IMG/VR virus record: IMGVR_UViG_3300024255_001088
DNA: 64,000 bases
Reading direction: 5' to 3' (one strand)
From: a virus
Shown: one piece after another, positions 2,897-53,393 of the stretch
Numbering within the stretch: the stretch's first letter is position 1
Layout: each line of letters begins with the position of its first letter
Position numbers and translations under genes: made by a program
The notes under the pieces: model-generated
Database searches by the model: none
Told to the model about the DNA's origin: nothing
What the model saw: only the letters and a program-made list of their open reading frames with translations

Positions 2897-2924
2897 TGCG
2901 ATATGAATACAATAGGAGAATACA

Positions 2925-3824: not shown

Positions 3825-3837
3825 TTTCTTTATAGGG

Positions 3838-3995: not shown

Positions 3996-4008
3996 AAGAG
4001 AATATTAT

Positions 4009-4245: not shown

Positions 4246-4439
4246 GTAATTGGCATGGGGGCAAGGGTTCTAAGAGAAGGAACTCAAACGAAGAAGCCTA
4301 TGCTGATAATTGGGAGAAAATCTTTGGTAAGAAAAAACCAGAGGTAAAAGTTAGAAAAGAAACACCTAGTCAAGGTGCTACACAAGTCCATTCGGACAAA
4401 ACATTATACAGTAGAAAAAAAAGATTTATACCTGAATAG
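4242..4439 (+). CDS. Small basic hypothetical protein
   Basis: ATGA-coupled to rpsU; GGKGSKRR...YADNWEKIFGKK. Confidence 0.7.
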   Translation: MSNWHGGKGSKRRNSNEEAYADNWEKIFGKKKPEVKVRKETPSQGATQVHSDKTLYSRKKRFIPE

Positions 4440-4440
4440 G

Positions 4441-28900: not shown

Positions 28901-31900
28901 CCATCAGTTGGTCAACTATTTGGTAATGCAGATTTAGTTAGTCAGAGTTATGTATTCAATATTGCAAGTATATTAGATGTATCAGACTACAGTAGTGGTA
29001 ATGGTACAGGTCACTTAATATCTCCATTTGCATATGAAGCAAGAAGTTTTGAATCCTCTAGAGATAATCTATTAGGAGTATCTTCTGCTGATATTACGAC
29101 ATCACATTCAACATATTCAAGATGTCCTTTACCCACATCAATGATTAAGTCAGACATAGAGTTCTATGTGCCTAGAATCGATAAAGTATTCTTACATAGA
29201 AGTGGTAAATTCGAAGTTGCACAAGGTAATCCGACCTTAACACCACAAAGACCAAATTCAATTGATGATTCTTTAGAAATGTTCGAATTGTTTATACCTG
29301 CATTTACAAGAAATGTAAAACAAATACAAGTAAAAACAAAAGACTACAGAAGATTTACAATGGGCGACATTGGTAAAATCAATCAGAGAGTCACAAACTT
29401 AGAAAGAATTACTGCATTGTCTTTATTAGAGAAAGACACACAAACAAAACAGATATTAGATGCACAAGGTTTCGATAGATTCAAATCTGGTTTCTTAGTA
29501 GATAACTTCAGAGGTCACAAAATTGGTGATGTATCTCATCCTGATTATCATGTTGGTATAGATACTAAATTGGGACAATTAAGACCAGAATCAGTATCAA
29601 ACTTCTTTGATATGGAATTAAATGCATCTGGTTCAACTGGTTATCAGCAGACTGGTGATTTAATTACATTACCTTACTCACAAGTATCATATGTAAATCA
29701 AGATAAGGCATCTAGACATGTCAATGTTAATCCATATCATGTATTTGCATTTATAGGTAATGTCAAATTAACTCCTGGTTCTGATATATGGAATGATACA
29801 GAACAATTACCAGAAGTTAGAATCAACAGAGAAGGAAACTTTGACGCTGTTCTTGCAGAGAATCAAAACTCACTTGGAACAATATGGAATAACTGGCAGA
29901 CAACATGGGTTGGTGAACCAACCGTAGTTAGTTCTTCAGTAGATGCAGCTGTTCCTGGCAATTGGTCTGGTGACCCTGCTCAAGGTGGTGAATGGGTTCA
30001 AGGTACAATCATAACAACAGAGATTACCGAAACACCAGAAATTCAATCAAGACAAGGTGTTAATACTTCAGTAGTTGAAGACTTTGTAGAAACAAGAAAC
30101 GATAGAGTTGTTAGTGTCAGTGTTATACCTTTCATTAGAAGTAGAGAGATAACCGCAGTAGGAACTAACTTAAAACCAAACACAAAACACTTTGTATACT
30201 TTGATGGTATCAGAGTAGATGGTTATGTCACACCTAGTAGTGCTGACTTCTCACAAGATGGAACAACAAACAAGGGTGTTGGAATAAAAACAAATGGTAA
30301 TGGTAAAGTAGAATGTAAGTTCTTAATACCTAATGACCAATTCCAAAGATTCCCAACAGGACAAAGAGAATTAAAGATAACATCTCAGTCATCGAATCAA
30401 AGTAATCCAGATTCAATGGGCGCAGAGATTTATCAAGCACAAGGTCTCTTAAATAGTTCACAAACAGAAATAGTATCTACTAGAAATGGTAGAGTGGTGA
30501 CAGAAAGATTATCAGGCGAAAGAACAATTACAAGAAGAGGTGAAAGATTAAATGTGACAGGAGATGGTTCATTACCACCCCCACCACCACCTATTGTGCC
30601 GCCTCCTCCAGTACCACCGACACCACCACCTATGCCACCAACTCCGGTATATGTGCCAGTCCCTGTACCAGTTCCGGTACCTGTGCCAGTCCCTGTACCA
30701 GTTCCGGTACCTGTGCCTGTGCCTACACCGCCTACTACTGTTCCTATACCACCTCCTGTACCATTACCTCCAAGGTTCCCACCCGCTGATTTAATGGTTC
30801 TTCCAAGAGAAGAAGGCAGAAGAATATTTGACTTTGATATTCCAGCAGAACCAAGAGGTTGGCAAGACCCATTAGCAGAATCATTCATGGTAGAATCTGA
30901 TGGCGGTATGTTCCTAACATCTATAGATGTATTCTTTAAGAGTAAGGCAACTAGTTTACCTGTATCAGTAGAAATCAGAAATATGATAAATGGATATCCA
31001 GGACAGACAACTATACCATTCTCAATTGTGACAAAGAATCCAGATGAAGTCAATACTTCAGATGATGGTTCATCCGCAACTACATTTACATTTGAGTCAC
31101 CTGTATACCTAGAAGACAAACATGAATATTGTTTTGTTGTGTATACTAACTCAACAGATTACGAGTGTTTCATTTCCAGAATGGGCGAAACAGATTTAAT
31201 TACTGGACAGACAATATCAGGACAACCATACGCTGGTTCGTTGTTCATGTCTCAGAACGCATCTACATGGACAGCAGAACAAACAGATGACTTGAAGTTT
31301 AATATGAGAGTCGCTAAGTTTAATACAACTACAGCTGCAAACATCGTGTTTAACAACGCACATTTACCACCCAAGAAATTGCAGAATAATTCAATAGAAA
31401 CTTTTTCTAATCAATCATTCTTTAGAGTATACTCTTACTCACATGGTATGTACGACAATCAATCGAATGTTGTTATATATGGCGTAGAAGGAGATAAGAA
31501 GAATGGTGTATTAACTGTAGCAGGTTCAACAACAGGAACTCCAACTGCTGGTACATATAACAATAGTGGCGCCAATTGGGATTCCACAGGATATACCTAC
31601 AGTGGTACTGGTACAGGACTTAAGATTGATACAATAACAGTTAATAGTGGAAATCAAATTAGTTCAGTGACAATCAAAGACCCAGGTGTAGGTTATACTG
31701 CAAACGAATCTATCACTATTAATAACTATGATGGTTCAAACAATGCAACTATAACATTATCAAGTGTTGGAGATACATTGGGTGGTTTCCCTGTAGATTC
31801 AATTAATAAAGTATTCAGTAGTATCAATAATTACGGTATCGACTCATTTGCATGTACACCAGACTTAACATCGTATCACTTATCATATACCAATGCAGTT

Positions 31901-35311: not shown

Positions 35312-36901
35312 ATGTCAGACGATATTTTTATAAAACATGATAAGAATGGTGGAACTTTTCAGCAACCCTTTTTAGCCAGAGTACCTGCAACCGGTCAACA
35401 ACCGAATATCGCACAAAGAATTTATCAGGTTACTACTCAAGGAACACAACCATTTACATATCAAAGTAGAACACCTACAAATGTTCAGACGCCTAGTAAT
35501 GCACAAAATCCAATAATTGCTCAAGGTATCGCACAAACAACTTATCAACATAGGTCGCCTGCTATATACACAAGTAGGGCGCCTTCAATATACAATATTC
35601 AAACACCTTCTACATATCAACATAGAAGTCCTTTGATATATCAACATAGGTCACCGTTTACTTATCAGTTAAATTATCAACATAGAGAACCTTCTACATA
35701 TCAACATAGAAGTCCTTTGATATATCGTACACCGACTCAGACTAGAACGCCTAGCATCTATACAAATAGACAACCTTTAACATATGAACATAGAAGTCCT
35801 TTTACATATGACCACAGAAGTCCTTTAACATATGACCACAGAAGTCCTTCTCGAACACCTTCTACATATCAAAATAGACAACCTTTAATATATGACCATA
35901 GGTCGCCTTATCAAAGTCCGTTTACTTATCAACATAGAAGTCCGTTGATATATGACCATAGGTCGCCTTCTACATACGATAATAGAGAACCTAGTATCTA
36001 TCAACATAGAAGTCCAGACACTTATCAGCATCAATCGCCGAGTACTTATCAGCATAGGTCACCGTCTCAGAGTCCGTTTACATACGACCATAGGTCACCA
36101 TTTACATATGACCATAGGTCACCGTCTCAGAGTCCGTTTACATACGACCATAGGTCACCATTTACATATGACCATAGGTCGCCTTATCAAAGTCCGTTTA
36201 CATACGACCATAGGTCACCATTTACATATGACCATAGGTCACCATTTACAACTCCAGTAATTGTTAATACACAAAGCTCAAGAAATGCACGAACACCGTT
36301 TATCTTTAGTGAATTACAACAGCAAAACATTGGTACTACGACTGCTCCATATGCTGAAGTTCATTGTGAGATGTCACTTATAGATTCTAGCGGTCGAGAA
36401 CCTTGGATTGTATTATATTGTGTTGAATCAAGTAATGATGTTAATGTATATGTTTATGCTTCAGCTGATGCATTTGGACTTCCTGATGCATATCTGAAAG
36501 AAACAAATACCGGCGGTACTCAAAATGGTCAGGATCAAAACATTGAAGAAAATAGTGATGTTCTTCTATACAAAATAGACGATGCTGGAACTAATTATTC
36601 TGTTGCTAGAAGTACCTCTACTCATGGTACCTTCAATGAGGGTACTCTGAGCGGAAACATTTCTGGAGGCACTGCAATAACTAGCACTTCTTGGACTTAT
36701 GGTACAACTAATGGTACTTTTACCAAGTGGAAATGTGATAATGCTAACTCTGGAGATGTTAAGGAGTACGAGACAACTAATACATTTACATTTACAAGTC
36801 CAGATGCTAATATGGGAACTCATACAATAACGCTAAAAGTGAATCTGTATTACGAAAACGAACAACCAGAAGAAGATGAAGAAGAAAATGACCAGGAGTA
36901 A
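35312..36901 (+). CDS. Repeat filament protein A (PxTYxHRS array plus ~200-aa C-terminal domain)
   Basis: 310-aa proline-punctuated array (aa 19-328), then a non-repetitive domain with an acidic tail. Confidence 0.85.
   Translation: MSDDIFIKHDKNGGTFQQPFLARVPATGQQPNIAQRIYQVTTQGTQPFTYQSRTPTNVQTPSNAQNPIIAQGIAQTTYQHRSPAIYTSRAPSIYNIQTPSTYQHRSPLIYQHRSPFTYQLNYQHREPSTYQHRSPLIYRTPTQTRTPSIYTNRQPLTYEHRSPFTYDHRSPLTYDHRSPSRTPSTYQNRQPLIYDHRSPYQSPFTYQHRSPLIYDHRSPSTYDNREPSIYQHRSPDTYQHQSPSTYQHRSPSQSPFTYDHRSPFTYDHRSPSQSPFTYDHRSPFTYDHRSPYQSPFTYDHRSPFTYDHRSPFTTPVIVNTQSSRNARTPFIFSELQQQNIGTTTAPYAEVHCEMSLIDSSGREPWIVLYCVESSNDVNVYVYASADAFGLPDAYLKETNTGGTQNGQDQNIEENSDVLLYKIDDAGTNYSVARSTSTHGTFNEGTLSGNISGGTAITSTSWTYGTTNGTFTKWKCDNANSGDVKEYETTNTFTFTSPDANMGTHTITLKVNLYYENEQPEEDEEENDQE
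35366..36295 (+). repeat. Coding repeat array A
   Basis: Mostly 24-bp units such as ccatttacatatgaccataggtca; all Pro-to-Pro units are of even length. Confidence 0.9.
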
Positions 36902-36907
36902 TGTGAT

Positions 36908-38002
36908 ATGCCAGTAGGACAACAACCATCCATATACCAACATCCTATTGCTACACAGGCGCAACAACCAGCGCAACAACCTAATATTAGAAACAAACAA
37001 CACCCTGTTATTAGAAACAAACAGGAAAGTAATCAAGAACCTAATATTAGAAACAAACAACACCCTGTTATTAGAAACAAACAGGAAAGTAATCAAAATC
37101 CTGTTATTAGAAACAAACAAGAACCTAATATTAGAAGCAAACAGGAAAGTAATCAAAATCCTGTTATTAGAAACAAACAACATCCGTTTATTAGAGACAG
37201 ACAAAATCCGGTTGAAAGAGCTCATCAAACTCCTTATACTGCAAATAAACAAAATCCTGTTATTAGAGACCAACAGGTGCCTAGTATAAGAAACGCCCAA
37301 CAGAATGCTCAAGAACCTAATATTAGAAGCGCTCAAAGTCCTTACATCGCAGATGCACAAGCGAATACGCAGAATCCTTTTATTAGAAATCAACAAGAAC
37401 CTAATATTAGAAGCAAACAGGAATCTGTTATAAGAAACAAACAGTCTGCTTATCAAGCGAGTAAACAAACTCCTTCTATAACAAGAACACCAGCGAGTCA
37501 ACAAGAACCTAATATTAGAAGCGCACAAACACCTTCTATTAGACAAGCGCTTAAAAATAAACAACAACCTAATATTAGAAGTCAACAAGAACCTAATATT
37601 AGAAATAAGAGAACACCTTCAGCACATAACGCACAATATCTTAATACTCACAATAGACAAGACCCTGTTATTAGAAGACAACCATTTACATATCCTTTCT
37701 CATATAGAAGTCCTTCTACTTACAGACATCCTACTATTGGTCAACAACCATATATTGCACAAGGTCAGGCTTCTTATAGTTTTCAACAAAACAGACAACA
37801 ACCATATGGATTCAGGTCTCCGTTTATATTTCAAGCAACAGAGAACTCTAATCGACCAATAACGCCAGTTGCAAAAGTGAAAGGAGTCTTTATAAAAGAT
37901 AGTGATGGTGTTGTAAAAGCTTCAACTAAAGTCTTTGTTAAGAAAGATAGTTCAACAGTTGAGAAAATTCATCAGGTACCTGCTTTGCCGTTTGACGAAT
38001 AG
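36908..38002 (+). CDS. Repeat filament protein B (PNIRxxQE array), mirror partner of A
   Basis: 310-aa array (aa 7-316); C-terminal VKGVFIK...KVFVKK motif. Confidence 0.85.
   Translation: MPVGQQPSIYQHPIATQAQQPAQQPNIRNKQHPVIRNKQESNQEPNIRNKQHPVIRNKQESNQNPVIRNKQEPNIRSKQESNQNPVIRNKQHPFIRDRQNPVERAHQTPYTANKQNPVIRDQQVPSIRNAQQNAQEPNIRSAQSPYIADAQANTQNPFIRNQQEPNIRSKQESVIRNKQSAYQASKQTPSITRTPASQQEPNIRSAQTPSIRQALKNKQQPNIRSQQEPNIRNKRTPSAHNAQYLNTHNRQDPVIRRQPFTYPFSYRSPSTYRHPTIGQQPYIAQGQASYSFQQNRQQPYGFRSPFIFQATENSNRPITPVAKVKGVFIKDSDGVVKASTKVFVKKDSSTVEKIHQVPALPFDE
36926..37855 (+). repeat. Coding repeat array B
   Basis: cctaatattagaaacaaacaa-type units. Confidence 0.9.
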
Positions 38003-38733: not shown

Positions 38734-40368
38734 ATGGCAACAGTAATTCAAATCAAAAGAAGTACAGGCGCATCTGCTCCGGCGATATCAGATTTATCGG
38801 AAGGTGAATTGGCGTATGTACAAGATAGAAGTAATTCTGGTGCATCTGCTAAACTATTCATCGAATCAGTAGATTCAGATAATTCTACAGCCCTAATCCA
38901 TGCGATTGGTGGTAAGTATTATACTGATATGCTTTCTGGTTCTTCAGCAACACCTGCTAACTTTAAAGTTGGTAATGGTTCTACTGCTGGTGCAACTTTA
39001 CAAATCATGGAAGATTCCGATAACGGAACAAACTTCGTTGGTCTTAAAGCTGCAGATACTCTTGGTTCTTCAGTAACCTTCACGCTGCCTACCGCAGACG
39101 GTTCTGCTAACCAAGTTATAGCAACAGATGGTTCAGGAAATCTTTCTTTCGCTTCAACAACTTCAACCCTTGCTGGTGGTAGTGATGTAAACATCACATC
39201 TGCTGCTGATGGTGCGATGTTATTATATGATACAGGAACATCAAAATGGATTGACAATGTAATGTCTGGTGACGCCACTATGGCCGACACAGGTGTTATG
39301 ACAATCGCAAACAACGCTATCAACGCTGCTAAATTAGCAGATGATGCAGTAGATACTGCAGCTATCTTAGATAGTAATGTGACATTAGATAAGATTAACT
39401 TCTTTGTAGACGAAGACAACATGGCTTCTAACTCAGCAGTTAAAGTTCCTTCTCAACAATCAGTAAAAGCATATGTAGACAGTAGTGTAACCGCTTCAGA
39501 CTTAGATATGGCTGGTGACAGTGGAACAGGTGCAGTAGACTTAGACTCTCAGTCACTAACAATCGCTGGTACAGCAAACGAGATTGAAACATCAATGTCA
39601 GGACAAACTTTAACAGTTGGTCTTCCAAACAATGTGACAGTCGCAAATAACTTAACAGTTTCAGGAAACTTAATATCAGACGATATTACAACTGCAACTT
39701 TAACAACATCTGGTAACTTAACAGTCACAGGAAACTTGGCAGTTAATGGTACTACAACAACAGTAAACTCAACAACAGTAAATATCGCTGACCCTGTATT
39801 CGAAATTGGTTCAGATAGTTCAGACGATAACCTAGACAGAGGTATTAAATTTAAGTACAACTCCGGTGGTGCTAAAATTGGTTTCTTTGGTATGGATGAT
39901 ACAGATGGTTCTTTTGTCGCTCTAACAAGTGCAACAGATAGTTCTTCAGTATTCTCTGGTACTGCAATGGCAGGTAAATTCGGTGACTTAACAGCTGCTG
40001 GTTTAGCAATGAGTGGAAGTATTTCTTCTTATGCAGGTTCAGCTCCTACAGATGGTCAAGTCTTAATTGGTGACACATCTTCAGGTTTAATGGACGCTGC
40101 TACTCTTACTGCTGGTGATGGTATTGATATCACTAATGGTGCAGGTGCAATTACGATTGCTGCTGAAGTATCAACTGCTTCTAACTTAGGTTCTGTAATT
40201 GTCGCTGCTGGCGAAGGTATGGATGTAGCGTACTCAGGTGGTACAGCAACCATTACTGGAGAAGATGCAACGACATCTAATAAAGGTATCGCTAGTTTTG
40301 CTAGTGCTAACTTTACAGTATCAAGTGGTGCAGTTACCATTACTGCTATTGACGGTGGAACATTTTAA
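38734..40368 (+). CDS. Tail fibre protein (Mtd_N-like N-terminus)
   Basis: MATVIQIKRS...GELA; FTLPTADG; QQSVKAYVD; ends IDGGTF. Confidence 0.75.
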   Translation: MATVIQIKRSTGASAPAISDLSEGELAYVQDRSNSGASAKLFIESVDSDNSTALIHAIGGKYYTDMLSGSSATPANFKVGNGSTAGATLQIMEDSDNGTNFVGLKAADTLGSSVTFTLPTADGSANQVIATDGSGNLSFASTTSTLAGGSDVNITSAADGAMLLYDTGTSKWIDNVMSGDATMADTGVMTIANNAINAAKLADDAVDTAAILDSNVTLDKINFFVDEDNMASNSAVKVPSQQSVKAYVDSSVTASDLDMAGDSGTGAVDLDSQSLTIAGTANEIETSMSGQTLTVGLPNNVTVANNLTVSGNLISDDITTATLTTSGNLTVTGNLAVNGTTTTVNSTTVNIADPVFEIGSDSSDDNLDRGIKFKYNSGGAKIGFFGMDDTDGSFVALTSATDSSSVFSGTAMAGKFGDLTAAGLAMSGSISSYAGSAPTDGQVLIGDTSSGLMDAATLTAGDGIDITNGAGAITIAAEVSTASNLGSVIVAAGEGMDVAYSGGTATITGEDATTSNKGIASFASANFTVSSGAVTITAIDGGTF

Positions 40369-40405
40369 TTAATATTCTTTAACACACTTTCAATAGGAGA
40401 TAGAA

Positions 40406-41230
40406 ATGGCAACAGTTATACAGTTTAAAAGAAGTTCGACTCAGAACGCAGTTCCTAGTACTGGTGATTTATCACTAGGGGAACTGGCTGTCAATACTTA
40501 TCACGGTAGATTTTATACCGAGAAAAATGATGGTTCCGCTGCTGTTGTAGAGATTGGGTCTAACCCAAAAACTCTACAAATTAATGACGCTATAACATTT
40601 CCAACCAGTGATGGTTCAAATGGACAAGTTCTTCAGACCAATGGTTCAGGAATAGTTTCATTTGCAACTTTAGGTGGTTCAGGTGTTTCAATTTACAAAT
40701 ACACCGTTTCGGGTAACCAAACTGTATTTACAGGTAATGATGATGACAGTAATGCATTGTCTTACACTGTAGGTTCAGAACAAGTATTCCTTAATGGTGT
40801 TAAGTTAGTTGATGCTGGTGCAGATTATACTGCAACCAACACCACGACAATCACACTGGAAGAAAATGCAATTGCAGGTGATACAGTAGAAGTAGTAGCA
40901 GTTACCGCTGCTAATTTAGTACAAGGATACTATACAAATAGTGTCTTTAGTGCAACTACTGCTAATCAAGTATTATCAAGCAATGCAGTATCTAATAAAG
41001 GTATTAAATATGTTATTACTGCCACTCATGCGAGTGCAGGAACACATTCAGCCGAAGTATTATTAATCAATGATGGATCCAATGCATATTTCGTTCAATA
41101 TGGCGATATATTCAGTACTGCTTCATTATTTTCGTTGACAGCTGATGTTAATTCAGGAAACATGAGACTCTTATGTACACCTGCTAACACCAACACAACG
41201 GTTAATACTTTCCAAATAAGACAATCATAG
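40406..41230 (+). CDS. Tail fibre-associated protein
   Basis: MATVIQFKRS...GELAVN; FPTSDG; VFLNGVKL; C-terminal domain shared with the next two genes. Confidence 0.75.
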   Translation: MATVIQFKRSSTQNAVPSTGDLSLGELAVNTYHGRFYTEKNDGSAAVVEIGSNPKTLQINDAITFPTSDGSNGQVLQTNGSGIVSFATLGGSGVSIYKYTVSGNQTVFTGNDDDSNALSYTVGSEQVFLNGVKLVDAGADYTATNTTTITLEENAIAGDTVEVVAVTAANLVQGYYTNSVFSATTANQVLSSNAVSNKGIKYVITATHASAGTHSAEVLLINDGSNAYFVQYGDIFSTASLFSLTADVNSGNMRLLCTPANTNTTVNTFQIRQS

Positions 41231-45386: not shown

Positions 45387-47489
45387 ATGGCGACAGGCTC
45401 ACAAAAGGTAAAAACACCAACAGGTTGGAATAGTACCCGAGGTGCATGGGTAAAAACAGACTCAGGCACATGGAAAGCTGCTGACCAGATTTATGTAAAA
45501 ACACCTACAGGTTGGAACAATGCTTCTGGACAACAGAGTGTTCAACAACCTTACCCTTATATCGCAAACGCACAAGAACCCAATATAAGAAACAAACAGA
45601 ATCCTTATCCTTATATTGCAAACGCACAAGAACCTAATATAAGAAACAAACAGAATCCTTATCCTTATATTGCTAATGCACAAGAACCTAATATTAGAGA
45701 TAGAAGACAACCTGCGATTTATCAAAATCCAGTAAATGCACAAGAACCTAATATTAGAAATCAACAAGAACCTAATATTAGGTCACAACAAGAACCTAAT
45801 ATTAGAGATGCTAGACAACCTGGTACATATCAACATAGGTCACCTAGTACATATAGAGACCCTCGTTCATATCAGAATCCTTCTACATATAATCATAGAA
45901 GTCCGTTGACATATCAACATAGAAGTCCGTTGACATATCAACATAGGTCACCATTTATATATCAACATAGGTCACCTTCTACATATAGTAATAGACAACC
46001 TAGTACATATCAACATAGGTCGCCTTATAGAAGTCCGTTTATCTATCAACATAGAAGTCCGTTGACATATGACCACAGGTCTCCTTTAATATATCGTAAT
46101 CCGTTTACTTATAATCACAGGTCTCCTTTAACATATGACCATAGGTCACCTTATCAAAGTCCATTTACTTACGACCATAGAAGTCCGTTGACATATCAAC
46201 ATAGGTCACCTTATAGAAGTCCGTTCACTTATCAACATAGAAGTCCGTTGACTTATCAACATCAGTCACCGAGTATTTACCAGAATCCAAGTACCTATCA
46301 GAACAGACAACCTAGTACTTATCAGCATCAGTCGCCAAGTATTTACCAGAATCCTAGTACTTACGACAATAGACAACCTAGTAGTTATCAGCATCAGTCG
46401 CCAAGTATTTACCAGAATCCGAGTACTTACAACAATAGACAACCTGGTACATATGACCATAGGTCACCTTATAGAAGTCCGTTCACTTATCAACATAGGT
46501 CACCATTTACATATGACCATAGGTCGCCGTTTACATATCGTAATCCGTTTACTTATAACCATAGGTCGCCTACTACATATAATCACAGGTCACCATATAC
46601 ATATGACCATAGGTCGCCTAGTACATACAATCACAGGTCACCTAGTACATATCAGGCAAGACAACCTAACGCTGCTAGAAACCCATTTAGTGCAAGACAA
46701 CCGTTCACTTATCAGGCAAGAGAACCTAATACATATAATCATAGGTCGCCTAGTACATACCAAGCAAGACAACCGAATAGTGCTAGACAACCATTTAGTG
46801 CGAGACAACCGTTCACTTATCAGGCAAGACAACCAAACTCTGCTAGAAACCCATTTAGTGGAAGAAATCCTTTCACTTATCAGGCAAGGTCGCCTTCGAT
46901 TGCAAACAATAGGTCTCCTGCAACTTATTCATTCAGAATGCCGTTTACCTTTGGTGGTGGAGGAGGAGGCGGAGGTTGCTTCGCTCCAGGTTCAATGATA
47001 TGGTTAGGCGATGGTTCACATGCACCTATCGAGTCATGTGTTGTTGGTCAATGGGTCATGTCTTGGAACGAAAGTACTAAATTACTTGAACCTAAGAGAA
47101 TACAACAAATTAATCCTCAGCCAATCAGTTCTATATGGGATATAACATTCTCAGATGGTAGAATTCTACAGATGACTGATACTCACCCATTGATGTTACC
47201 AAATGGTGAATGGGGTGCATTTGATATTGAGAAATCAGTAAAAGAACATTGGTGGATGGAAGATATAGAAACACATGAACTTAAAGTTGGAGATAGTATA
47301 TTCAGTATGTTAGATGGCATAATGTTTGATAGACAAGATGAAATGGGACTAGAGATAGTATCAATAGAAGAACACTCAGAAATGGAAGTTTATAACTTAA
47401 CTGGTATTGAAGATAACTCGAACTTCTTTGTTAATGGCATGTTAGCACATAACTTTAACAATCTACCTATTCCTGTAGGACAAAAATAA
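45387..47489 (+). CDS. Repeat filament protein C with C-terminal Hint domain
   Basis: N-terminal VKTPTGW repeats, 464-aa array (aa 55-518), Gly8 linker, Hint domain. Confidence 0.88.
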   Translation: MATGSQKVKTPTGWNSTRGAWVKTDSGTWKAADQIYVKTPTGWNNASGQQSVQQPYPYIANAQEPNIRNKQNPYPYIANAQEPNIRNKQNPYPYIANAQEPNIRDRRQPAIYQNPVNAQEPNIRNQQEPNIRSQQEPNIRDARQPGTYQHRSPSTYRDPRSYQNPSTYNHRSPLTYQHRSPLTYQHRSPFIYQHRSPSTYSNRQPSTYQHRSPYRSPFIYQHRSPLTYDHRSPLIYRNPFTYNHRSPLTYDHRSPYQSPFTYDHRSPLTYQHRSPYRSPFTYQHRSPLTYQHQSPSIYQNPSTYQNRQPSTYQHQSPSIYQNPSTYDNRQPSSYQHQSPSIYQNPSTYNNRQPGTYDHRSPYRSPFTYQHRSPFTYDHRSPFTYRNPFTYNHRSPTTYNHRSPYTYDHRSPSTYNHRSPSTYQARQPNAARNPFSARQPFTYQAREPNTYNHRSPSTYQARQPNSARQPFSARQPFTYQARQPNSARNPFSGRNPFTYQARSPSIANNRSPATYSFRMPFTFGGGGGGGGCFAPGSMIWLGDGSHAPIESCVVGQWVMSWNESTKLLEPKRIQQINPQPISSIWDITFSDGRILQMTDTHPLMLPNGEWGAFDIEKSVKEHWWMEDIETHELKVGDSIFSMLDGIMFDRQDEMGLEIVSIEEHSEMEVYNLTGIEDNSNFFVNGMLAHNFNNLPIPVGQK
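45549..46940 (+). repeat. Coding repeat array C
   Basis: 66 Pro-initiated units of 2, 4, 6 or 8 aa. Confidence 0.9.
46977..47453 (+). other. Hint (intein-like / BIL) auto-processing domain
   Basis: Block A CFAPGSMI, block B TDTHP, block F VYNL, block G FFVNGMLAHN; +1 residue is Phe. Confidence 0.9.
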
Positions 47490-47529: not shown

Positions 47530-48996
47530 ATGCCACAGCAACCTCTAATTGGACTTGCTCAATCGCCAAGTACTTCTAATGTGCAAACTCCGTATATTGC
47601 TAATGGCCAGCAACCTTATACTGGTCAACAACCATATACATATCAGTCGCCATATATTGCATCTGGTCAGACTCCTTATACTGGTCAGACTCCTTATACT
47701 TACCAGAGTCCTTATATTGCGAATAATCAACAACCCAATATTAGAAGTTATCAAAGTCCGTATATTGCGAATGGTCAGACTCCTTATACTGGTCAACAAC
47801 CTTATACTTTCCAGAGTCCATACATTGCGAATAATCAAGAACCTAATATAAGGAACAATCAGGAACCCAATATTAGAAGCATACAAGAACCTAATATTAG
47901 AAACCAACAAGAACCTAATATTAGAGATGCTCAGTCACCTAGTAATGCTCAGCAACCTACAATTAAGAACAAACAAGAACCTAATATTCGTTCAGCGCAA
48001 CAGTCAGCACAAGAACCAAATATCAGAAACTTTCAGACTCCTTACATTGCTAATGCACAAGGGGCTAGTGCAGCTCAAGAACCTAATATCAGAAATGCAC
48101 AAACACCTTATATTGCAAACAGACAAAACACTGCAAATGCACAAGAACCTAATATTAGAAACAGACAAACACCTTATATTGCAAACAGACAAACCACTTC
48201 AAATGCACAAGAACCAAACATAAGGTCACAACAAGAACCTAATATTCGTTCAGCGCAAGCGTCAGCACAAGAACCAAACATAAGGTCACAACAAGAACCT
48301 AATATTAGAAACAAACAGCAGAGTGCTCAACAACCTACTATTAAGAACCAACAGGAACCTAATATTAGAGATGCTCAGTCACCTAGTAATGCTCAGCAAC
48401 CTAATATTAGAAGTCAACAAGAACCTAATATTCGTTCAGGTCAAACGGTAACGCAAGAACCTAATATTAGAGACAGACAAACACCTTATATTGCTAATGC
48501 ACAAAATCCGTTTATTAGAAATGCTCAAGAACCAAACATAAGGTCACAACAAGAACCTAATATTAGAGCTCAACAAGAACCTAATATTAGAAACAGACAA
48601 ACAACAGCGAGCTATCAGAATCCTGTAAATGCTCAGAATCCGTTTATAAGAAATAATCAGACTCCATTTACATATGACCATAGAAGTCCGTTGACATATG
48701 ACCACAGGTCTCCTTTAACATATGACCATAGAAGTCCGTTTACTTACAGAAATCCTGCAAATAGTCAGACACCTCTTACATATCAACATCAGAGTCCTTC
48801 TACATATGCTAGACAAGGTCAAACACCAACGACTTATCAACATAGAAGTCCTTCTACATATGCTAGACAAGGTCAGACACCAACGACTTATCAACATAGG
48901 TCACCTAGTACATATGCTAGACAAGGTCAAACACCTGTTATCCGTTGGGATGGTTCATTGTCACAAACATGGCCAGGAACACCTGTTAATTCTTAA
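47530..48996 (+). CDS. Repeat filament protein D, mirror partner of C
   Basis: 464-aa array (aa 5-468), C-terminal RWDGSLSQTWP. Confidence 0.88.
   Translation: MPQQPLIGLAQSPSTSNVQTPYIANGQQPYTGQQPYTYQSPYIASGQTPYTGQTPYTYQSPYIANNQQPNIRSYQSPYIANGQTPYTGQQPYTFQSPYIANNQEPNIRNNQEPNIRSIQEPNIRNQQEPNIRDAQSPSNAQQPTIKNKQEPNIRSAQQSAQEPNIRNFQTPYIANAQGASAAQEPNIRNAQTPYIANRQNTANAQEPNIRNRQTPYIANRQTTSNAQEPNIRSQQEPNIRSAQASAQEPNIRSQQEPNIRNKQQSAQQPTIKNQQEPNIRDAQSPSNAQQPNIRSQQEPNIRSGQTVTQEPNIRDRQTPYIANAQNPFIRNAQEPNIRSQQEPNIRAQQEPNIRNRQTTASYQNPVNAQNPFIRNNQTPFTYDHRSPLTYDHRSPLTYDHRSPFTYRNPANSQTPLTYQHQSPSTYARQGQTPTTYQHRSPSTYARQGQTPTTYQHRSPSTYARQGQTPVIRWDGSLSQTWPGTPVNS
47542..48933 (+). repeat. Coding repeat array D
   Basis: 55 Pro-initiated units of 6-14 aa. 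Confidence 0.9.
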
Positions 48997-49033: not shown

Positions 49034-50581
49034 ATGAGCGTAAAATCAGACTCACTCGAGCACACAAAGGAACTTCTCAAAGATTGGGATCCAACAGATA
49101 AGAACACACATGTTCAGTTGGGTTCTTTTGATGTATCAAAAGATTATAAAGAAACAGAAGCATATAAATCTTTAAAATGGGTGACAGCGAACAAAACAGG
49201 AAAATTAAAACAGGTCAAATGGGGTGATATGACTAAGTTAATCAAGGAACAAAAGTTTCTTGGTTGGAACAAACTACAATCTCATTCATGGGCATATCAT
49301 TACTTTCTTTCTAAAGGATACACTGCACCACCCGAAAATCCAAAACCAGGAATTGCAGGTATGGATTTTAAAAATTCAAATGATGAATATCAAAAGATAG
49401 AAGAATTCACAGATACTAAGTTAAGCGAACAACAAGATTCTAGTCTTAATGCTGTATATTATCATGGTGCAAAGGCACATTGGTTAGTCGATAGTATCAG
49501 AAAAGAAGGTCTATGGAATGCAATTCAAGGCACTGTATCTACAGCAGGTATGAACTCCAGAGATGAACGAATGTATCAGTTATCTATACATCCAGGTTCT
49601 GTTCGTTCAGGTGTTTTCGAAACTATGAATGACCCAGACTTAGATTTATGGATATGGGATAACCACGATGCTATACCTCTTCCAGAAACACCTATAGATG
49701 AAATGATTGACGAAATGAAGTCGCAACTTGTAGAAAGAAATGCAGACCACTACTCAATGTCGTTTTCATTCACTCGTGGATATTTAGAAATACATAGTGA
49801 CTTATTGAAGATGAACTTCAGAGGAGATGTGACAGACTTCAATAAAAAAGTAAATAAACTTTCTGCTGGCAAACCCTTGACAATCTATGTCGGATATGAT
49901 AGTAGACACAAAGACATTGCAGAACTAAGTGCTAAATGTCTTAAGAGTAGTATATTATTTGGAGCAGGTCATGGTGATGTACATGATATATTAGGAGATT
50001 GGACTCCTGAGATAAAGTTTCTTGACATATCAAAGATTCCAGAGTATAATAGAGAGTATGCAGCTCAATCAACAGAGTTCACATATAGTAGATTCTTAAT
50101 TCCTTACTTAGAAAACTATGAAGGATTTAGTATTTTTATTGATGATGATATACTATTCAATGAAAGTATCTTACCAATGTTCTACTATTTAGATTTAGAT
50201 GATGCAGTTGCATGTGTTCAGTATGATTTTGATACTTATGCTGAAACAAAATTTAACGGTGAAAAGAATGTATCTTATCCTAAAAAACTTTGGTCATCAT
50301 TAATGATATTTAATAATGGTCACGAAGACTGTAAGAAACTTACGCCAGAAGTTATCAATACTGAAAGTGGTAAATATCTACATCAATTTGAATGGACAGA
50401 TAAGATATCAGAAATACCAGAATGGTATGTTATAACTGAGGGGCATGATACGCAAGAAGAAAAGTGGCGTGCTTGTGCTATACATTATACTAGAGGTGGT
50501 CCTTGGATTGAAGGCATGGATACTTCTGAAATAGAACACCTAAATATGTATGAAAGATTTAAAAATAAACATCAAAACTAG
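49034..50581 (+). CDS. Two-domain protein: ParB/Srx-like N-terminal domain plus GT-A glycosyltransferase
   Basis: IYVGYDSR, STEFTYSRFLIPYL, FIDDD (DxD), WSSLMIFN, LHQFEW, HYTRGGPW. Confidence 0.8.
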   Translation: MSVKSDSLEHTKELLKDWDPTDKNTHVQLGSFDVSKDYKETEAYKSLKWVTANKTGKLKQVKWGDMTKLIKEQKFLGWNKLQSHSWAYHYFLSKGYTAPPENPKPGIAGMDFKNSNDEYQKIEEFTDTKLSEQQDSSLNAVYYHGAKAHWLVDSIRKEGLWNAIQGTVSTAGMNSRDERMYQLSIHPGSVRSGVFETMNDPDLDLWIWDNHDAIPLPETPIDEMIDEMKSQLVERNADHYSMSFSFTRGYLEIHSDLLKMNFRGDVTDFNKKVNKLSAGKPLTIYVGYDSRHKDIAELSAKCLKSSILFGAGHGDVHDILGDWTPEIKFLDISKIPEYNREYAAQSTEFTYSRFLIPYLENYEGFSIFIDDDILFNESILPMFYYLDLDDAVACVQYDFDTYAETKFNGEKNVSYPKKLWSSLMIFNNGHEDCKKLTPEVINTESGKYLHQFEWTDKISEIPEWYVITEGHDTQEEKWRACAIHYTRGGPWIEGMDTSEIEHLNMYERFKNKHQN

Positions 50582-50595
50582 ATTATGGAGTTATT

Positions 50596-51147
50596 ATGAA
50601 TATGTTAATTTATTGTGAGAATGGTCATCTTACTATTAGAAAACCAAATGGCCTAGAATGGAGACATGATAATGTCGATAAACCTAATTTAGGGTTTGAG
50701 TATGATGTTCTTATCTATGATGACATCGAAGTCAAGATTATGGAATGGAAAGAAAATGTTCAGTTTGATGAACAAGAAAAAATTTCATTAACAGATGTTG
50801 AGTTAGATGCAATCGAAAACTACATTCAAAATTCTGTTCCACCTTCCGATGTGACATTATCCAATCAATACAGTCAACAAATTAATGATGTTGGTAAAGA
50901 TTACTTAGACCAACAAATTCAAACTTATGGATTTGAAAGTCTGGTAGATGTTATGGCTGCAGGTAGAGATGGTTCAAATCATCCTTTAAGGTCAGATGCA
51001 AGAAGAGTATTAGAATACTATGATGTGATGTGGAACATCTATGTAAATATTATGAATGATGTAAAATCAACTAGAGAAGATTTACTTCCAGATGTAGAAG
51101 AATATATTAATAGATTCCCACCGCCACAAAAAGCATTAATAGAGTAG
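50596..51147 (+). CDS. Hypothetical protein (possible fibre assembly factor)
   Basis: 183-aa ORF with GGAG RBS; no clear motif. Confidence 0.55.
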   Translation: MNMLIYCENGHLTIRKPNGLEWRHDNVDKPNLGFEYDVLIYDDIEVKIMEWKENVQFDEQEKISLTDVELDAIENYIQNSVPPSDVTLSNQYSQQINDVGKDYLDQQIQTYGFESLVDVMAAGRDGSNHPLRSDARRVLEYYDVMWNIYVNIMNDVKSTREDLLPDVEEYINRFPPPQKALIE

Positions 51148-51150
51148 TTT

Positions 51151-51885
51151 ATGTCCCTAGAAATAGTCAAGGTAGATAAACCTTTTACTATTAAAGACTT
51201 TCCTTTAGGAAATAAAGTCTATGTAATAGACAATTACTTAGAAACTTCTATACATCGATGGATTCATCGTAAAACTTCTGAGGGTCCTAGGTGGTCTAAA
51301 CAAAATCAAGTAAACGCACAACATCCCACAGGTTTACCTCATCATCAACTTTGGGGTGCATCATTCTTTAAAACAGATGATTATGGTAATCCAAAAATGG
51401 AATATGGGGAAACAAGCGACACTGTAGAACATGCTAAATGGTTGAACAGAAGAATATGTACAGACTTTGGTTTTAAATGGAAAAGATTTCAGTATATGGG
51501 AACCAATTCTCAAACTCATGGTCAACATGGTACAACTCATTGTGATTGTGATGAACAAGATGAATGGAACCTATCATTTCTATATTACTATAATAAATTC
51601 TGGAATCCTGCATGGGGTGGAGATTTAAGATTTTATGATAAAGGTGTTTATCAAGCCGGTTTAGATGGAAGAGAAGAACACATAGAAAAACATTCTATAG
51701 GAAGTATAGAGTTTAAACCAAACAGATTGTTAATGTTTGATGGAAGAATACCACATGGTGCAGATGCACCAACAGAACGAGCTCGATATGCAGATAGATG
51801 TTCTATCGTACTTAGGGGTGACGAGATAGAACTAGTAGATAAGGAAGAATTATATAATGCCAACGATAGATTTCACTACATTTAA
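51151..51885 (+). CDS. 2OG-Fe(II) oxygenase, prolyl-hydroxylase-like
   Basis: HCD, WNPAWGG, FKPNRLLMFDGRIPH, distal R. Confidence 0.88.
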   Translation: MSLEIVKVDKPFTIKDFPLGNKVYVIDNYLETSIHRWIHRKTSEGPRWSKQNQVNAQHPTGLPHHQLWGASFFKTDDYGNPKMEYGETSDTVEHAKWLNRRICTDFGFKWKRFQYMGTNSQTHGQHGTTHCDCDEQDEWNLSFLYYYNKFWNPAWGGDLRFYDKGVYQAGLDGREEHIEKHSIGSIEFKPNRLLMFDGRIPHGADAPTERARYADRCSIVLRGDEIELVDKEELYNANDRFHYI

Positions 51886-52693
51886 CGAAGAGAGTCTTAG
51901 AGACTGGAAACCAGTTCTTGCTAAATCGTTAAGTCCTGATTGGTGGAAAAAAATGAAAGTCTTTCAACACGATAGAGGACAAAGAATACAGACTATTCGT
52001 GCTTGTCCGGCAATGGACGATTGGTTAAAATCTGGTTGGTACATTCTTGCAAATAGAGATATGGAAGTTGTTTTTGATAACGGCAAAACATATACTCAAG
52101 AATTTGGTAAAAAGGTGGCACAATCTCAAGCATCTCCTTCTCATCCTGCAGCTCAGTTTGCACACTCATTCAGTTATTTAGGAGAAGAAGGTCCAATTAA
52201 AGATGCATTTAAAATGAGAAATGCTTGGAATATAATAACGCCAAAGGGTTATTCTTGTTTCTATTTAGACCCCTTTTTATTTCAAAACAATCATTTTGCA
52301 ACATGGCAAGGTGTTATAGATACAGATGACTTTAATATCAATCAAGACAATTCACAAATTATTTTCTATCCTAAAGTTAGTCATTCGTTTGTTATACCAA
52401 AAGGAACTCCCCTAGTTCAAGTTATACCTTTTAAAAGAGAAGAATGGGTATCGACTTATCAGTTAAAAGACACTGCTGGATGGCACAAAGATAGAACCGA
52501 AGATAGAGTACAAGAACTTCCTAGCATGGACCAAGTAAACAGAGAGAAGTACGATAAACTATTAAAAGAGAAACCCAACAATATGGGTGCATATAGAAGT
52601 GAAGGACATTGGAAACAAAAAGGTAAGAATTTCAAAGAAATGGAACCTCCACCAGAGTGTCCATTTCATAAAGGAGAAATAGATGGCGATTAA
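51857..52693 (+). CDS. Conserved hypothetical phage protein
   Basis: TIRACPAMDDW, TPKGYS, GVIDTD, IPKGTPLVQVIPFKRE; this type often accompanies 2OG oxygenases. Confidence 0.65.
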   Translation: MPTIDFTTFNEESLRDWKPVLAKSLSPDWWKKMKVFQHDRGQRIQTIRACPAMDDWLKSGWYILANRDMEVVFDNGKTYTQEFGKKVAQSQASPSHPAAQFAHSFSYLGEEGPIKDAFKMRNAWNIITPKGYSCFYLDPFLFQNNHFATWQGVIDTDDFNINQDNSQIIFYPKVSHSFVIPKGTPLVQVIPFKREEWVSTYQLKDTAGWHKDRTEDRVQELPSMDQVNREKYDKLLKEKPNNMGAYRSEGHWKQKGKNFKEMEPPPECPFHKGEIDGD

Positions 52694-53393
52694 ATTATTT
52701 AGTCCAGCAGTAATTTGTATTAGAGAATGGTTATATAATCCAGAAGACAAAGTAGAAGGATTGACGCCAGAGTATTTTCAAATGTTGAAGGATGAAATGG
52801 ATGCTATGAGAACTAGAGACCGTGAAGGTAGAAGCAGGTCTAATAAAGGTCTTGGTTGGCAATCAAACGATGGTATCGATAACAATCCCATATTCAATAA
52901 GTTGATGAGACAAATTAAAAGAACAGTGTCGGAAGAGATTATGGGTTATTGTGGATTCGAAAAAGGAACTGCTCAATGTGTTATGCATAACTCATGGGGA
53001 AACATAAACTATCCAGGTGGATATAATGCACCACATTTACATAATGGTTGTACTTATTCTGGTGCATGTTATATTAGGGCAGACGGAGACGAGGGAGATA
53101 TTAAGTTTATAGAAACAACTAAACACTATGTTGGAATGGCTCTATCTTCACCTAGAATGGAAGAATCTTGGGGTTGGCAACCAAAAACTGGAGACATACT
53201 TTTATTTCCTAGTGGCACCATGCATCTGGTTGAACCAAACACGACAGATAAAGATAGATATAGTATATCGTTTAATATAGAGATTTCTCAACCCAATGGA
53301 GAAATTCTTATTGAAGAGAATGGCGAAGAATGGCATAAAGAAAACATGGGTTTAGTATTCAGAACAGATAGATTTGGTAAGTTGATACAGTAG
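52683..53393 (+). CDS. Putative 2OG-Fe(II) oxygenase (TIGR02466-like)
   Basis: GWQS, WGNIN...PHLH...SGACY, LFPS...HLVEPN...RYSISFN. Confidence 0.88.
   Translation: MAIKLFSPAVICIREWLYNPEDKVEGLTPEYFQMLKDEMDAMRTRDREGRSRSNKGLGWQSNDGIDNNPIFNKLMRQIKRTVSEEIMGYCGFEKGTAQCVMHNSWGNINYPGGYNAPHLHNGCTYSGACYIRADGDEGDIKFIETTKHYVGMALSSPRMEESWGWQPKTGDILLFPSGTMHLVEPNTTDKDRYSISFNIEISQPNGEILIEENGEEWHKENMGLVFRTDRFGKLIQ

What the first reader, a model, noticed from the sequence alone, without database searches (positions are those of the whole stretch)
35312..38002. Second, independent mirror pair (A/B, 310 aa each) obeys the same rule
Seen: A aa 19-328 read backwards gives 14,4,8,8,4,8,8,4,8,8,4,8x6,4,8,8,4,8x4,6,6,8,12,8x4,16,6,6,8,16,6,6. 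B aa 7-316 read forwards gives 6+8,4,8,12,8,12,8,12,8x5,12,8,12,8,24,6,6,8,12,8,8,16,6+4+6,6,6,18+6,12. Cumulative boundaries agree throughout and both total 310 aa. The pattern differs from C/D, so each pair has its own 'barcode'. Inference: A pairs with B and C with D, giving two filaments (about 100 and 150 nm) that avoid cross-pairing. Replication in one genome makes coincidence very unlikely.
Basis: partly seen in the sequence, partly recalled or inferred. Interest (0 to 1): 0.92.

Follow-up and report, generated by a model that had tools for sequence, protein, structure and literature searches.

The report
Mirror-coded two-protein phage fibre
Two neighbouring genes of an uncultured marine T4-like phage encode repeat proteins that match unit for unit when one is read backwards, so they most likely zip together head-to-tail into one long thin fibre, a building principle I could not find described for any protein.

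Summary
31 of B's 36 cut points coincide with A's when A is reversed (z 8.5, 0 of 3000 shuffles). Parallel and non-cognate (A/D, C/B) matches are at background. C/D match 56 of 56.

The mirror is not an antisense or inverted-duplication artefact. Facing units are almost always of opposite type: xPxTYxHR faces EPNIRxxQ. Facing residues co-vary in one register. All 195 Pro-Pro spacings in the four arrays are even.

In 42 non-identical related gene pairs with 32 different length combinations, 39 keep the mirror rule. Nine loci carry a single gene in the same slot, with A's N-terminus, B's C-terminus and, where scored, a self-mirrored pattern. This is a natural fusion.

Best reading: an antiparallel two-chain ladder, probably a beta-ribbon. 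It runs out along A, carries A's variable C-terminal domain at the tip, and returns along B. It lies in the host-recognition cluster of a pelagimyophage-like genome.

No structure or binding data exist and structure prediction failed. The fibre lengths of about 100 and 150 nm are inference. This scan had already found the same phenomenon in other genomes.

The parts
35312..36901 (+). Gene A (529 aa), the outgoing chain. It has a conserved N-terminus, a 310-aa proline-punctuated array and a C-terminal non-repeat domain.
   Evidence: ORF. Parse. At least 278 homologues in marine metagenomes. No Pfam, PHROG or PDB match.
35312..35362 (+). A aa 1-17, the conserved N-terminal piece (MSDDIFIK...). 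In the mirrored register it lies beside B's C-terminal tail, so I propose it as the virion-proximal end.
   Evidence: M1-K8 are invariant in alignment A2. The motif M[SA]D[DEK]I[FY][IV] is present in 30 of 42 A-like proteins and 9 of 10 single-chain forms.
35363..36292 (+). A array, aa 18-327: 40 units, mostly the 8-mer xPxTYxHR ('Y type'), with 4-, 6-, 12-, 14- and 16-residue units.
   Evidence: All 40 Pro-Pro spacings are even.
36293..36898 (+). A aa 328-529, a non-repeat C-terminal domain. In the mirrored register it sits at the fold-back end next to B's N-terminus, so I propose it as the distal tip.
   Evidence: Register. This domain is only 26% identical in relative L005 while the arrays are 84-90% identical. 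The AF2 model was unusable, with pLDDT 32.
36908..38002 (+). Gene B (364 aa), the returning chain. It starts 6 nt after A's stop codon.
   Evidence: No Pfam, PHROG or PDB match.
36923..37852 (+). B array, aa 6-315 (310 aa). Mostly the 8-mer EPNIRxxQ ('N type'), with Pro-less 4-residue inserts (ESNQ and similar).
   Evidence: All 34 Pro-Pro spacings are even.
37853..37999 (+). B aa 316-364, the conserved C-terminal tail (RPI..AKVKGVF...EKIHQ). I propose it as the proximal anchor together with A's N-terminus.
   Evidence: Conserved in alignments A3 and A1. The KIH motif is present in 39 of 42 B-like proteins and 6 of 10 single-chain forms by the regex used.
36053..36243 (+). 60-nt tandem array in A: 3.2 copies, 96% matches, encoding the (8,8,4)x3 block at aa 248-311.
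36974..37203 (+). 60-nt tandem array in B: 3.8 copies, 89% matches, aa 23-99. It faces the array in A in the mirrored register, with a matched number of 20-aa blocks.
45387..47489 (+). Gene C (700 aa), sister system. It has a 464-aa array followed by Gly8-Cys and a Hint-like domain.
   Evidence: Pfam Intein_splicing and Hint hits are below the curated cut-offs.
47530..48996 (+). Gene D (488 aa), C's mirror partner. 56 of its 56 cut points coincide with C's.

Best explanation
A and B are the two strands of one hairpin-shaped, two-chain fibre.

Proposed structure (inferred)
- The 310-residue arrays lie side by side in opposite directions and pair residue by residue.
- Each Y-type octad of one chain (xPxTYxHR) faces an N-type octad of the other (EPNIRxxQ, or its PYIA variant).
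- Every shorter or longer unit (2, 4, 6, 10, 12, 14 or 16 residues) faces a unit of the same length.
- The order of unit lengths and types acts as an address that fixes both the partner and the register.
- The conformation is most likely a continuous antiparallel beta-ladder. All spacings are even, and the register that co-varies (position i faces position 10-i) is the one that puts every proline of both chains in a non-hydrogen-bonded position.
- Arg5 would then lie over Tyr5, Asn3 beside His7, and position 7 against position 3.

Proposed function (inferred)
- The conserved end (A's N-terminus plus B's C-terminal tail) would attach to the virion.
- A's variable C-terminal domain would sit at the far tip.
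- The pair lies in the host-recognition cluster between the baseplate and neck genes, so a host-binding or whisker-type fibre is the likely role.

What is shown and what is not
- Shown: mirror and complementarity statistics, co-variation, co-evolving patterns in relatives, and natural fusions.
- Inferred: direct binding, beta geometry, length of about 100 nm, oligomeric state and function.
For: (1) Mirror match specific to the cognate partner. A/B match 31 of 36 cuts (z 8.5) and C/D 56 of 56 (z 13.5). A/D, C/B and parallel alignments are at background.

(2) Not a DNA artefact. There is no inverted DNA similarity. tblastn of B against A's DNA hits only the sense frame. A and B are therefore distant parallel paralogues whose unit order is nevertheless mirrored.

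(3) Opposite unit types face each other. This holds for 146 of 149 8:8 facing units in 10 pairs and 228 of 235 unique units in 42 IMG/VR pairs. There are no Y:Y or N:N pairs, against about 50% like-with-like expected at random.

(4) Residue co-variation.
- Arg/Lys at position 5 of the N unit goes with His at position 7 of the Y unit in 113 of 118 cases (Fisher p 6e-13).
- On 133 unique unit pairs the strongest mutual information is between positions 7 and 3 (Z 13.9; Ala with Phe, Gln with Leu). The anti-diagonal i+j=10 is the best register.

(5) Held-out test. A facing-residue log-odds matrix trained on unrelated loci gives A/B 302 bits and C/D 666 bits at full register. All other partners or shifts score 116 bits or less. 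The i+j=10 register beats i+j=9.

(6) Co-evolving patterns in relatives.
- Orthologous pairs in the same gene order have different patterns, yet each matches its own partner.
- Y and N blocks are swapped between chains in some relatives and remain complementary.
- A survey seeded on the conserved downstream 110-aa gene found 42 non-identical pairs: z>=5 in 32, z 3-5 in 7, z<3 in 3.

(7) Natural fusions. Nine loci, plus the P0092 family of 446-610 aa, carry one gene in the A+B slot. It has A's N-terminus and B's C-terminus. The P0092 family shows self-mirrored patterns in which Y faces N in 43 of 44 units; the IMG/VR single-chain loci score only z 1.6-3.9 on the slip-tolerant test.

(8) Even spacings. 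195 of 195 Pro-Pro spacings in the four arrays are even.

(9) Close relatives.
- Relatives 84-90% identical have no indels in the arrays.
- Substitutions co-locate in facing units (rho 0.43, p 0.003). They include paired changes: Ile4 to Glu with Asp6 to Gln, and Lys7 to Gln/Arg with Phe3 to Ser.
- 60-nt tandem blocks occur at facing positions of both genes in matched number.

(10) Genomic context.
- The genes are 6 nt apart.
- They lie between gp8-like and DUF4815 baseplate genes and the T4 neck, gp15, terminase, sheath and portal genes.
- This is the region that PMC7029224 calls the host recognition cluster of pelagimyophages.
- The tip domain diverges far faster than the arrays.
Against: - There is no physical evidence of any kind: no structure, proteomics or micrograph. 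I found no homologue in 50,697 GenBank phage records, so no cultured virion can be consulted.
- AF2 gave no confident model of the single-chain form or of the tip domain (pLDDT 31-32).
- I know of no solved precedent for a 100-nm ribbon of only two strands.
- Neither face of the proposed ribbon is clearly hydrophobic, so higher-order bundling or another geometry may be needed.
- Three of 42 surveyed pairs score z<3. A divergent subfamily with 10-residue units keeps equal path lengths, but its prolines are offset by 2.
- Co-variation counts are inflated by shared ancestry and by tandem duplication of unit pairs.
Confidence: 0.72

Rival explanations
1. The same antiparallel A/B pairing holds, but the object is not a lone two-stranded ribbon. 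The hairpins might bundle, for example three A/B hairpins around a threefold axis as in the six-stranded needle of T4 gp37. Alternatively they might adopt a more compact cross-beta or other extended conformation, so the length would be well below 100 nm.
For: Phage fibres are generally trimers (general knowledge). One His per Y unit could line an axis. Neither ribbon face is strongly hydrophobic. AF2 was uninformative.
Against: The co-variation is fully explained by contacts within one pair of strands. There are no HxH motifs. Matched 2-residue inserts and exclusively even spacings fit continuous residue-by-residue pairing better than stacked hairpins or sandwiches.
Confidence: 0.15
2. B is a full-length template or chaperone. 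It pairs with A during folding or assembly and is then removed, so the mature fibre lacks B.
For: Tail-fibre chaperones encoded next to fibre genes are common (general knowledge; PMC9608196, PMC7289586). The genes are tightly coupled.
Against: In nine loci the returning array is covalently part of the same polypeptide. B carries the conserved terminal tail that lies beside A's conserved N-terminus. A stoichiometric residue-for-residue template has no precedent that I know of.
Confidence: 0.06
3. A and B do not touch each other. Both lie in opposite directions along a common third scaffold whose irregularities impose the same pattern on each.
For: A mirrored length pattern alone would allow this.
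Against: This reading does not predict the strict opposite-type rule. It does not predict the size and charge compensation between facing residues, or the partner specificity of the held-out residue matrix. No third gene with a matching pattern exists in the 140-kb record; only A, B, C and D were found.
Confidence: 0.04
4. The mirror is an evolutionary or statistical by-product with no structural meaning: an inverted duplication read on the antisense strand, near-palindromic periodic arrays, or chance.
For: Periodic patterns such as (8,8,4)x3 are partly self-mirroring. A against itself gives 24 of 41.
Against: There is no inverted DNA similarity and no antisense-frame protein match. 0 of 3000 shuffles reach the observed match. 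The irregular part of the pattern (6,6,8,12...16,6,6) also matches. The rule recurs with different patterns in dozens of loci.
Confidence: 0.02

Closest known systems
Needle domain of the T4-type long tail fibre tip, gp37 (iron-His needle described in PMC6957217; out-and-back chain path from my own knowledge of Bartual et al. 2010)
   Same: It is a phage fibre in which the chain runs to the tip and returns, so outgoing and returning segments are antiparallel and must match in length. It has histidines at regular intervals and a receptor-binding tip at the fold-back.
   Different: gp37 is one chain, a homotrimer, and tens of residues per limb. It has HxH iron sites and no two-type unit code. 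Here the limbs are 310-464 residues, lie on two genes (or one in the fused forms), have one His per octad and show no sequence similarity.
Streptococcal antigen I/II stalk (A-region alpha-helix wound with P-region polyproline II helix, V domain at the tip; PMC6586375)
   Same: It is a long thin stalk made by two different repeat arrays of opposite direction. One array is proline-rich, a variable domain sits at the fold-back, and both ends meet at the anchor.
   Different: It is a single chain with 82- and 39-residue repeats in an alpha/PPII hybrid, and it is a cell-wall-anchored bacterial adhesin. Here the units are octads, all spacings are even (which suggests beta), and the chains are usually split over two genes.
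Antiparallel coiled-coil arms of SMC/Rad50 proteins and the antiparallel spectrin heterodimer (general knowledge; review PMC5082667)
   Same: Two long segments pair antiparallel, and interruptions in one must be matched by interruptions in the other. Length is conserved while sequence drifts.
   Different: These are alpha-helical heptad structures. They have no proline punctuation, no two-type complementary unit code and no phage context.
Triple-stranded beta-helix of T4 gp5 C-terminal domain (VxGxxxxx octapeptide repeats; general knowledge)
   Same: It has octapeptide periodicity in a phage tail structural protein built of beta strands.
   Different: It is made of three identical parallel chains with a Val/Gly motif. 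The mirrored hetero-pairing seen here is incompatible with a parallel homotrimer.

Membership tests
T4 gp37-type tail-fibre needle | Detectable sequence or profile similarity to gp37 or related fibre families | tested here: not met
   No Pfam, PHROG or PDB sequence hit for A or B.
T4 gp37-type tail-fibre needle | HxH motifs that coordinate iron along the axis | tested here: not met
   Y units carry a single His (xHR). No HxH motifs are present in the arrays.
T4 gp37-type tail-fibre needle | Out-and-back chain path with matched antiparallel limbs | tested here: met
   Met at the level of sequence logic only: mirrored patterns and self-mirrored single-chain forms.
T4 gp37-type tail-fibre needle | Homotrimeric assembly | not testable with these tools
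   No confident model was obtained.
T4 gp5C-type triple beta-helix | VxGxxxxx octapeptide and three identical parallel chains | tested here: not met
   The units are xPxTYxHR and EPNIRxxQ. The best parallel match is at background while the mirror match is significant.
Antigen I/II adhesin stalk | Ala-rich about 82-residue repeats, Pro-rich about 39-residue repeats and an LPXTG anchor | tested here: not met
   None of these is present in A or B. There is no Pfam hit.
Collagen-like phage fibre | Gly-X-Y triplets | tested here: not met
   There is no Gly periodicity. Only 7 of 40 (A) and 17 of 34 (B) Pro-Pro spacings are multiples of 3, while all are even.
6-fold beta-flower (Pfam PF21786) | Score above Pfam's gathering threshold | tested here: not met
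   The window's A has no hit. Homologue P0003 scores 28.5 against a cut-off of 34, over its 20-residue-period block.
Hint / intein-like autoprocessing domain (protein C only) | Pfam Hint or intein profile above threshold, N-terminal Cys and C-terminal His-Asn | tested here: inconclusive
   Intein_splicing scores 31.1 against a cut-off of 35.8, and Hint scores 21 against 29.7. Cys follows Gly8 and a His-Asn-Phe lies near the end. This domain is not part of A/B.

The most novel reading that the evidence does not exclude
These phages use a natural, sequence-addressable protein-protein pairing code. Two complementary unit types plus length 'punctuation' specify partner and register over hundreds of residues, much as base pairing does for nucleic acids. 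One virion can thereby assemble several orthogonal two-chain fibres of genetically set length, and the two genes must co-evolve their insertions and unit swaps.
Probability: 0.6. Interest if true: 0.95.

Novelty: categorically new. Interest (0 to 1): 0.88.

Why it matters
If the pairing is real, this is a new class of fibrous protein architecture and a new kind of molecular recognition: a long hetero-duplex of polypeptides whose partner and register are written in a simple two-letter, length-punctuated code.

- It would explain how a phage makes fibres of defined length from two genes.
- It gives a clean natural system for studying co-evolution of insertions and deletions between interacting proteins.
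- It could offer designable, orthogonal 'protein zippers' for nanomaterials.
- It would assign a role to a widespread family of unannotated genes: at least 278 homologues in ocean metagenomes. These lie in the host-recognition region of abundant marine myophages.

Tried and rejected
- Complex prediction of A 202-316 with B 20-131 returned no verdict (score 0.00). It is not used as evidence either way.
- AF2 on the single-chain homologue P0092 with a 15-row alignment gave pLDDT 31. Its only long strands, 18-37 and 417-436, sum to 454, which equals the i+j=10 register, but confidence is too low to count.
- AF2 on A's tip domain gave pLDDT 32, so no fold search was run.
- ESM Atlas gave only sub-threshold Ig/PKD leads for the tip and nothing for B's tail.
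- Pfam, PHROG and PDB sequence searches were all empty for A and B.
- GenBank phages: blastn and tblastn gave no real hits, only spurious mycobacteriophage matches. BLAST's low-complexity filter may hide some.
- The antisense or inverted-duplication origin was rejected.
- I thought by eye that B's C-terminal tail resembles C's N-terminus. BLASTP finds no alignment, so I dropped this.
- There is no detectable similarity between the middle of the single-chain forms and A-like tip domains.
- AXH and beta-flower Pfam hits in homologues are below threshold.
- The rigid-offset mirror test under-scores pairs with 1-2-residue register slips (L008, z 2.2). A slip-tolerant Viterbi version was used for the survey.
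- Literature searches found no description of this family or principle.
Full report
CONTEXT

The window belongs to a linear IMG/VR virus record of 140,007 bp, estimated 77% complete. GC content is about 35%. It is a T4-like myovirus.
- A gp8-like baseplate wedge protein is 33% identical to those of Pelagibacter phages Mosig and HTVC008M.
- Next comes a 2269-aa DUF4815 protein.
- Downstream lie a T4 neck protein, gp15, large terminase, sheath and portal.

Genes A/B and C/D lie between the DUF4815 gene and the neck gene, among fibre-like genes, a GT8 glycosyltransferase and 2OG-Fe(II) oxygenases. Zaragoza-Solas et al. (PMC7029224) describe the stretch between VrlC and gp14 in pelagimyophages as a hypervariable 'host recognition cluster' holding tail fibres and glycosyltransferases. 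I infer from position that the DUF4815 protein is the VrlC equivalent; I did not test this. The paper does not mention the proteins studied here.

A (35312-36901, 529 aa) and B (36908-38002, 364 aa) are adjacent, 6 nt apart. Both arrays total 310 residues.

| Comparison | Coinciding cut points | Control |
|---|---|---|
| A reversed vs B | 31 of 36 | shuffled unit order 13.1 +/- 2.1, max 22; z 8.5; 0 of 3000 |
| A vs B, parallel | 21 | background |
| A/D, mirrored | 19 | chance |
| C/B, mirrored | 18 | chance |
| C reversed vs D | 56 of 56 | z 13.5 |

The residue-level mirrored alignments are printed (A/B; C/D).

NOT A NUCLEIC-ACID OR DUPLICATION ARTEFACT

An inverted duplication read on the opposite strand would also mirror a repeat pattern. 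No inverted DNA repeats link A and B. The reverse complement of the Y-unit consensus is no closer to the N-unit consensus than the direct strand is. tblastn of B against A's DNA hits only the sense frame. A and B are therefore distant paralogues in the same direction, both with Pro at unit position 2. Ordinary duplication would give a parallel pattern, not a mirrored one. The mirror needs another cause.

A PAIRING CODE

Two unit types dominate: xPxTYxHR (Y) and EPNIRxxQ (N).
- **Opposite types face each other.** In the mirrored register Y faces N almost without exception. In 10 gene pairs, 146 of 149 facing 8:8 units have exactly one aromatic-5 unit, with no Y:Y and no N:N. Both C and D switch type along their length, and the partner switches at the same place.
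- **Sub-types also match.** PYIA units face His-less TYx(N/A)R units. Arg/Lys at N-unit position 5 goes with His at Y-unit position 7 in 113 of 118 cases (Fisher p 6e-13).
- **Unit lengths match.** Six-residue units face 6-residue units, 4 faces 4, and GQ faces NP.
- **Residues co-vary in one register.** On 133 unique unit pairs the strongest mutual information links N-unit position 7 with Y-unit position 3 (Z 13.9; Ala with Phe, Gln with Leu). The anti-diagonal i+j=10 is the best register.
- **Caveat.** These counts are not phylogenetically independent.

I therefore also ran a held-out test. A facing-residue log-odds matrix was learned only from IMG/VR pairs that are not close relatives of the window. 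It scores A/B at 302 bits and C/D at 666 bits in the full-length register. Every other partner, self-pairing or shifted register scores 116 bits or less. The i+j=10 matrix beats i+j=9.

GEOMETRY (INFERENCE)

All 195 Pro-Pro spacings in the four arrays are even. This is what a two-residue beta-strand periodicity requires. It is not what a three-residue polyproline or collagen geometry, or a heptad coiled coil, would give.

In an antiparallel ladder, pairs alternate between hydrogen-bonded and non-hydrogen-bonded. Only an even i+j puts Pro2 of both chains in the non-bonded class, and even unit lengths keep it there along the whole array. This stereochemical expectation comes from general knowledge of beta-sheets. 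It was derived independently of the co-variation and picks the same register.

On that model one face carries Asn3/His7, Arg5/Tyr5 and position 7/position 3. The other face carries Pro2/Arg8, Ile4/Asp-or-Gln6 and position 6/Thr4. At about 3.3 A per residue the arrays would span roughly 100 nm (A/B) and 150 nm (C/D). That figure stands or falls with the extended-ribbon assumption.

CO-EVOLUTION IN RELATIVES

Close relatives:
- Seven IMG/VR relatives 84-90% identical have no indels in either array.
- Non-synonymous changes are frequent (46 against 25 synonymous in A).
- Substitutions concentrate in the half of the ladder nearest A's C-terminal domain. They fall in facing units (rho 0.43, p 0.003).
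- They include paired changes: Ile4 to Glu with Asp6 to Gln, and Lys7 to Gln/Arg with Phe3 to Ser.
- These paired changes recur in the three copies of a 20-aa block. Those copies are recent tandem repeats in both genes (60-nt period, 96% and 89% matches, at facing positions). I count them as one coordinated change, not three.

More distant relatives:
- Distant orthologues in the same gene order have different patterns and lengths. A ranges from 422 to 695 aa and B from 257 to 390 aa. Each still matches its own partner (z 6-12).
- The cross-locus matrix is dominated by its diagonal.
- Y and N blocks have moved between chains yet stay complementary.

To avoid choosing loci by the repeats themselves, I seeded a survey on the conserved 110-aa gene downstream of B. 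It returned 80 loci.
- 42 non-identical split pairs, with 32 length combinations.
- With a slip-tolerant score, z>=5 in 32, z 3-5 in 7 and z<3 in 3.
- 228 of 235 unique facing octads are of opposite type, where about 50% would be expected at random.
- The weak cases belong to a divergent subfamily with 10-residue units. There, path lengths still agree but prolines are offset by two residues.

NATURAL FUSIONS

A subfamily of single proteins (P0092 and relatives, 446-610 aa) has patterns that mirror themselves about the middle. Y faces N in 43 of 44 octads. In locus L016 such a gene sits exactly where A+B sit elsewhere: DUF4815, then about 67 aa, then about 415 aa, then this gene, then about 111 aa, then about 72 aa.

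In the survey, nine loci have one gene in that slot. It carries A's N-terminal motif and B's C-terminal tail. On the slip-tolerant self-mirror test these loci score only z 1.6-3.9. This is a classical gene-fusion argument for interaction.

It also fixes the topology: out along the first array, a middle or tip region, and back along the second array. In the split form A keeps the tip domain, and B's N-terminus begins next to it. The two conserved termini (A's first 8 residues are invariant; B's tail) meet at the other end. The tip domain diverges much faster than the arrays (26% against 84-90% identity in L005). This gradient, a conserved anchor with a variable tip, is typical of phage receptor-binding fibres (general knowledge).

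WHAT FAILED

- Structure prediction was uninformative.
- The complex job returned no verdict.
- There are no Pfam, PHROG or PDB relatives of A or B.
- There are no real homologues in 50,697 GenBank phage records.
- Database names are all 'hypothetical protein'.
- Literature searches found no description.
- The genome record holds only these four family members.

COMPARISON WITH WHAT IS KNOWN

In topology the object works like the gp37 needle of T4-type long tail fibres and like the antigen I/II stalk of streptococci. In its matched-interruption logic it works like SMC or spectrin antiparallel pairs. It fails the defining sequence features of each of these (see the membership table). I therefore rate the architecture and the recognition principle as new in kind. 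The likely biological role, a phage host-recognition or whisker fibre, is a familiar one.

EARLIER NOTES OF THIS SCAN

First-stage notes on this genome already describe the C/D pair, a residue code and the Hint domain at C's tip. Follow-up reports on other genomes reached the same reading of mirror-complementary fibre pairs. I re-derived the rule on my own loci. From the short texts shown, I could not see the following in those notes: the even-spacing and proline-parity argument, the held-out partner-specificity score, the matched 60-nt tandem blocks, the conservation gradient, and the placement of the single-chain forms in the same genomic slot.

VERDICT

Physical pairing, geometry, length and function remain to be shown.

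Noticed in passing
window 36899-36910: A and B are in the same reading frame, separated only by a TAA stop and two codons (TGT GAT). Read-through would give a single chain like the natural fused forms. Relatives L008-L010 and L012-L014 have the two genes in different frames, so this is probably coincidence.
   Followed up: partly
window 46941-47489: Protein C ends its array with Gly8-Cys followed by a Hint/intein-like domain (Pfam hits below threshold) and a His-Asn-Phe near the end. In the mirrored register this domain sits at the fold-back next to D's N-terminus. Several homologues also carry PF14890.
   Followed up: partly
window 49034-53393: A GT8 glycosyltransferase and two 2OG-Fe(II) oxygenase genes (one of the prolyl-hydroxylase-type family PF13640) lie directly downstream of C/D. 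The same order follows the C/D-like pair in L015. They might modify the Pro/Tyr/Asn-rich arrays, or host surface sugars as PMC7029224 suggests.
   Followed up: no
window about 30530-30800: The 2269-aa DUF4815 protein contains a long Pro-rich and (Pro-Val)n stretch.
   Followed up: no
window 38734-41230: Two fibre-like proteins (544 and 274 aa) share the N-terminus MATVIQ[IF]KRS. The 544-aa one matches PHROG structural and tail-fibre families.
   Followed up: no
L005:5378-5986 compared with window 36302-36898: In a relative whose arrays are 84-90% identical, A's C-terminal domain is only 26% identical. This looks like tip-domain replacement.
   Followed up: partly
L092 and L094, ORF 4266-4982: A 238-aa B-like protein has a fairly self-mirrored pattern (rigid z 5.5-6), but no recognisable A-like array gene lies directly upstream. 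It could be an antiparallel homodimer or have a displaced partner.
   Followed up: no
L053, L060, L065-L074: A divergent subfamily with 10-residue units (for example TPFTYARQGR facing YPYIA-type units). Path lengths still agree, but proline positions are offset by two residues, so the proline-anchored test scores weakly.
   Followed up: partly
L060, ORF 2538-4169: This A-like protein ends with a Gly9 run followed by short Pro/Phe-rich repeats instead of a Hint domain.
   Followed up: no
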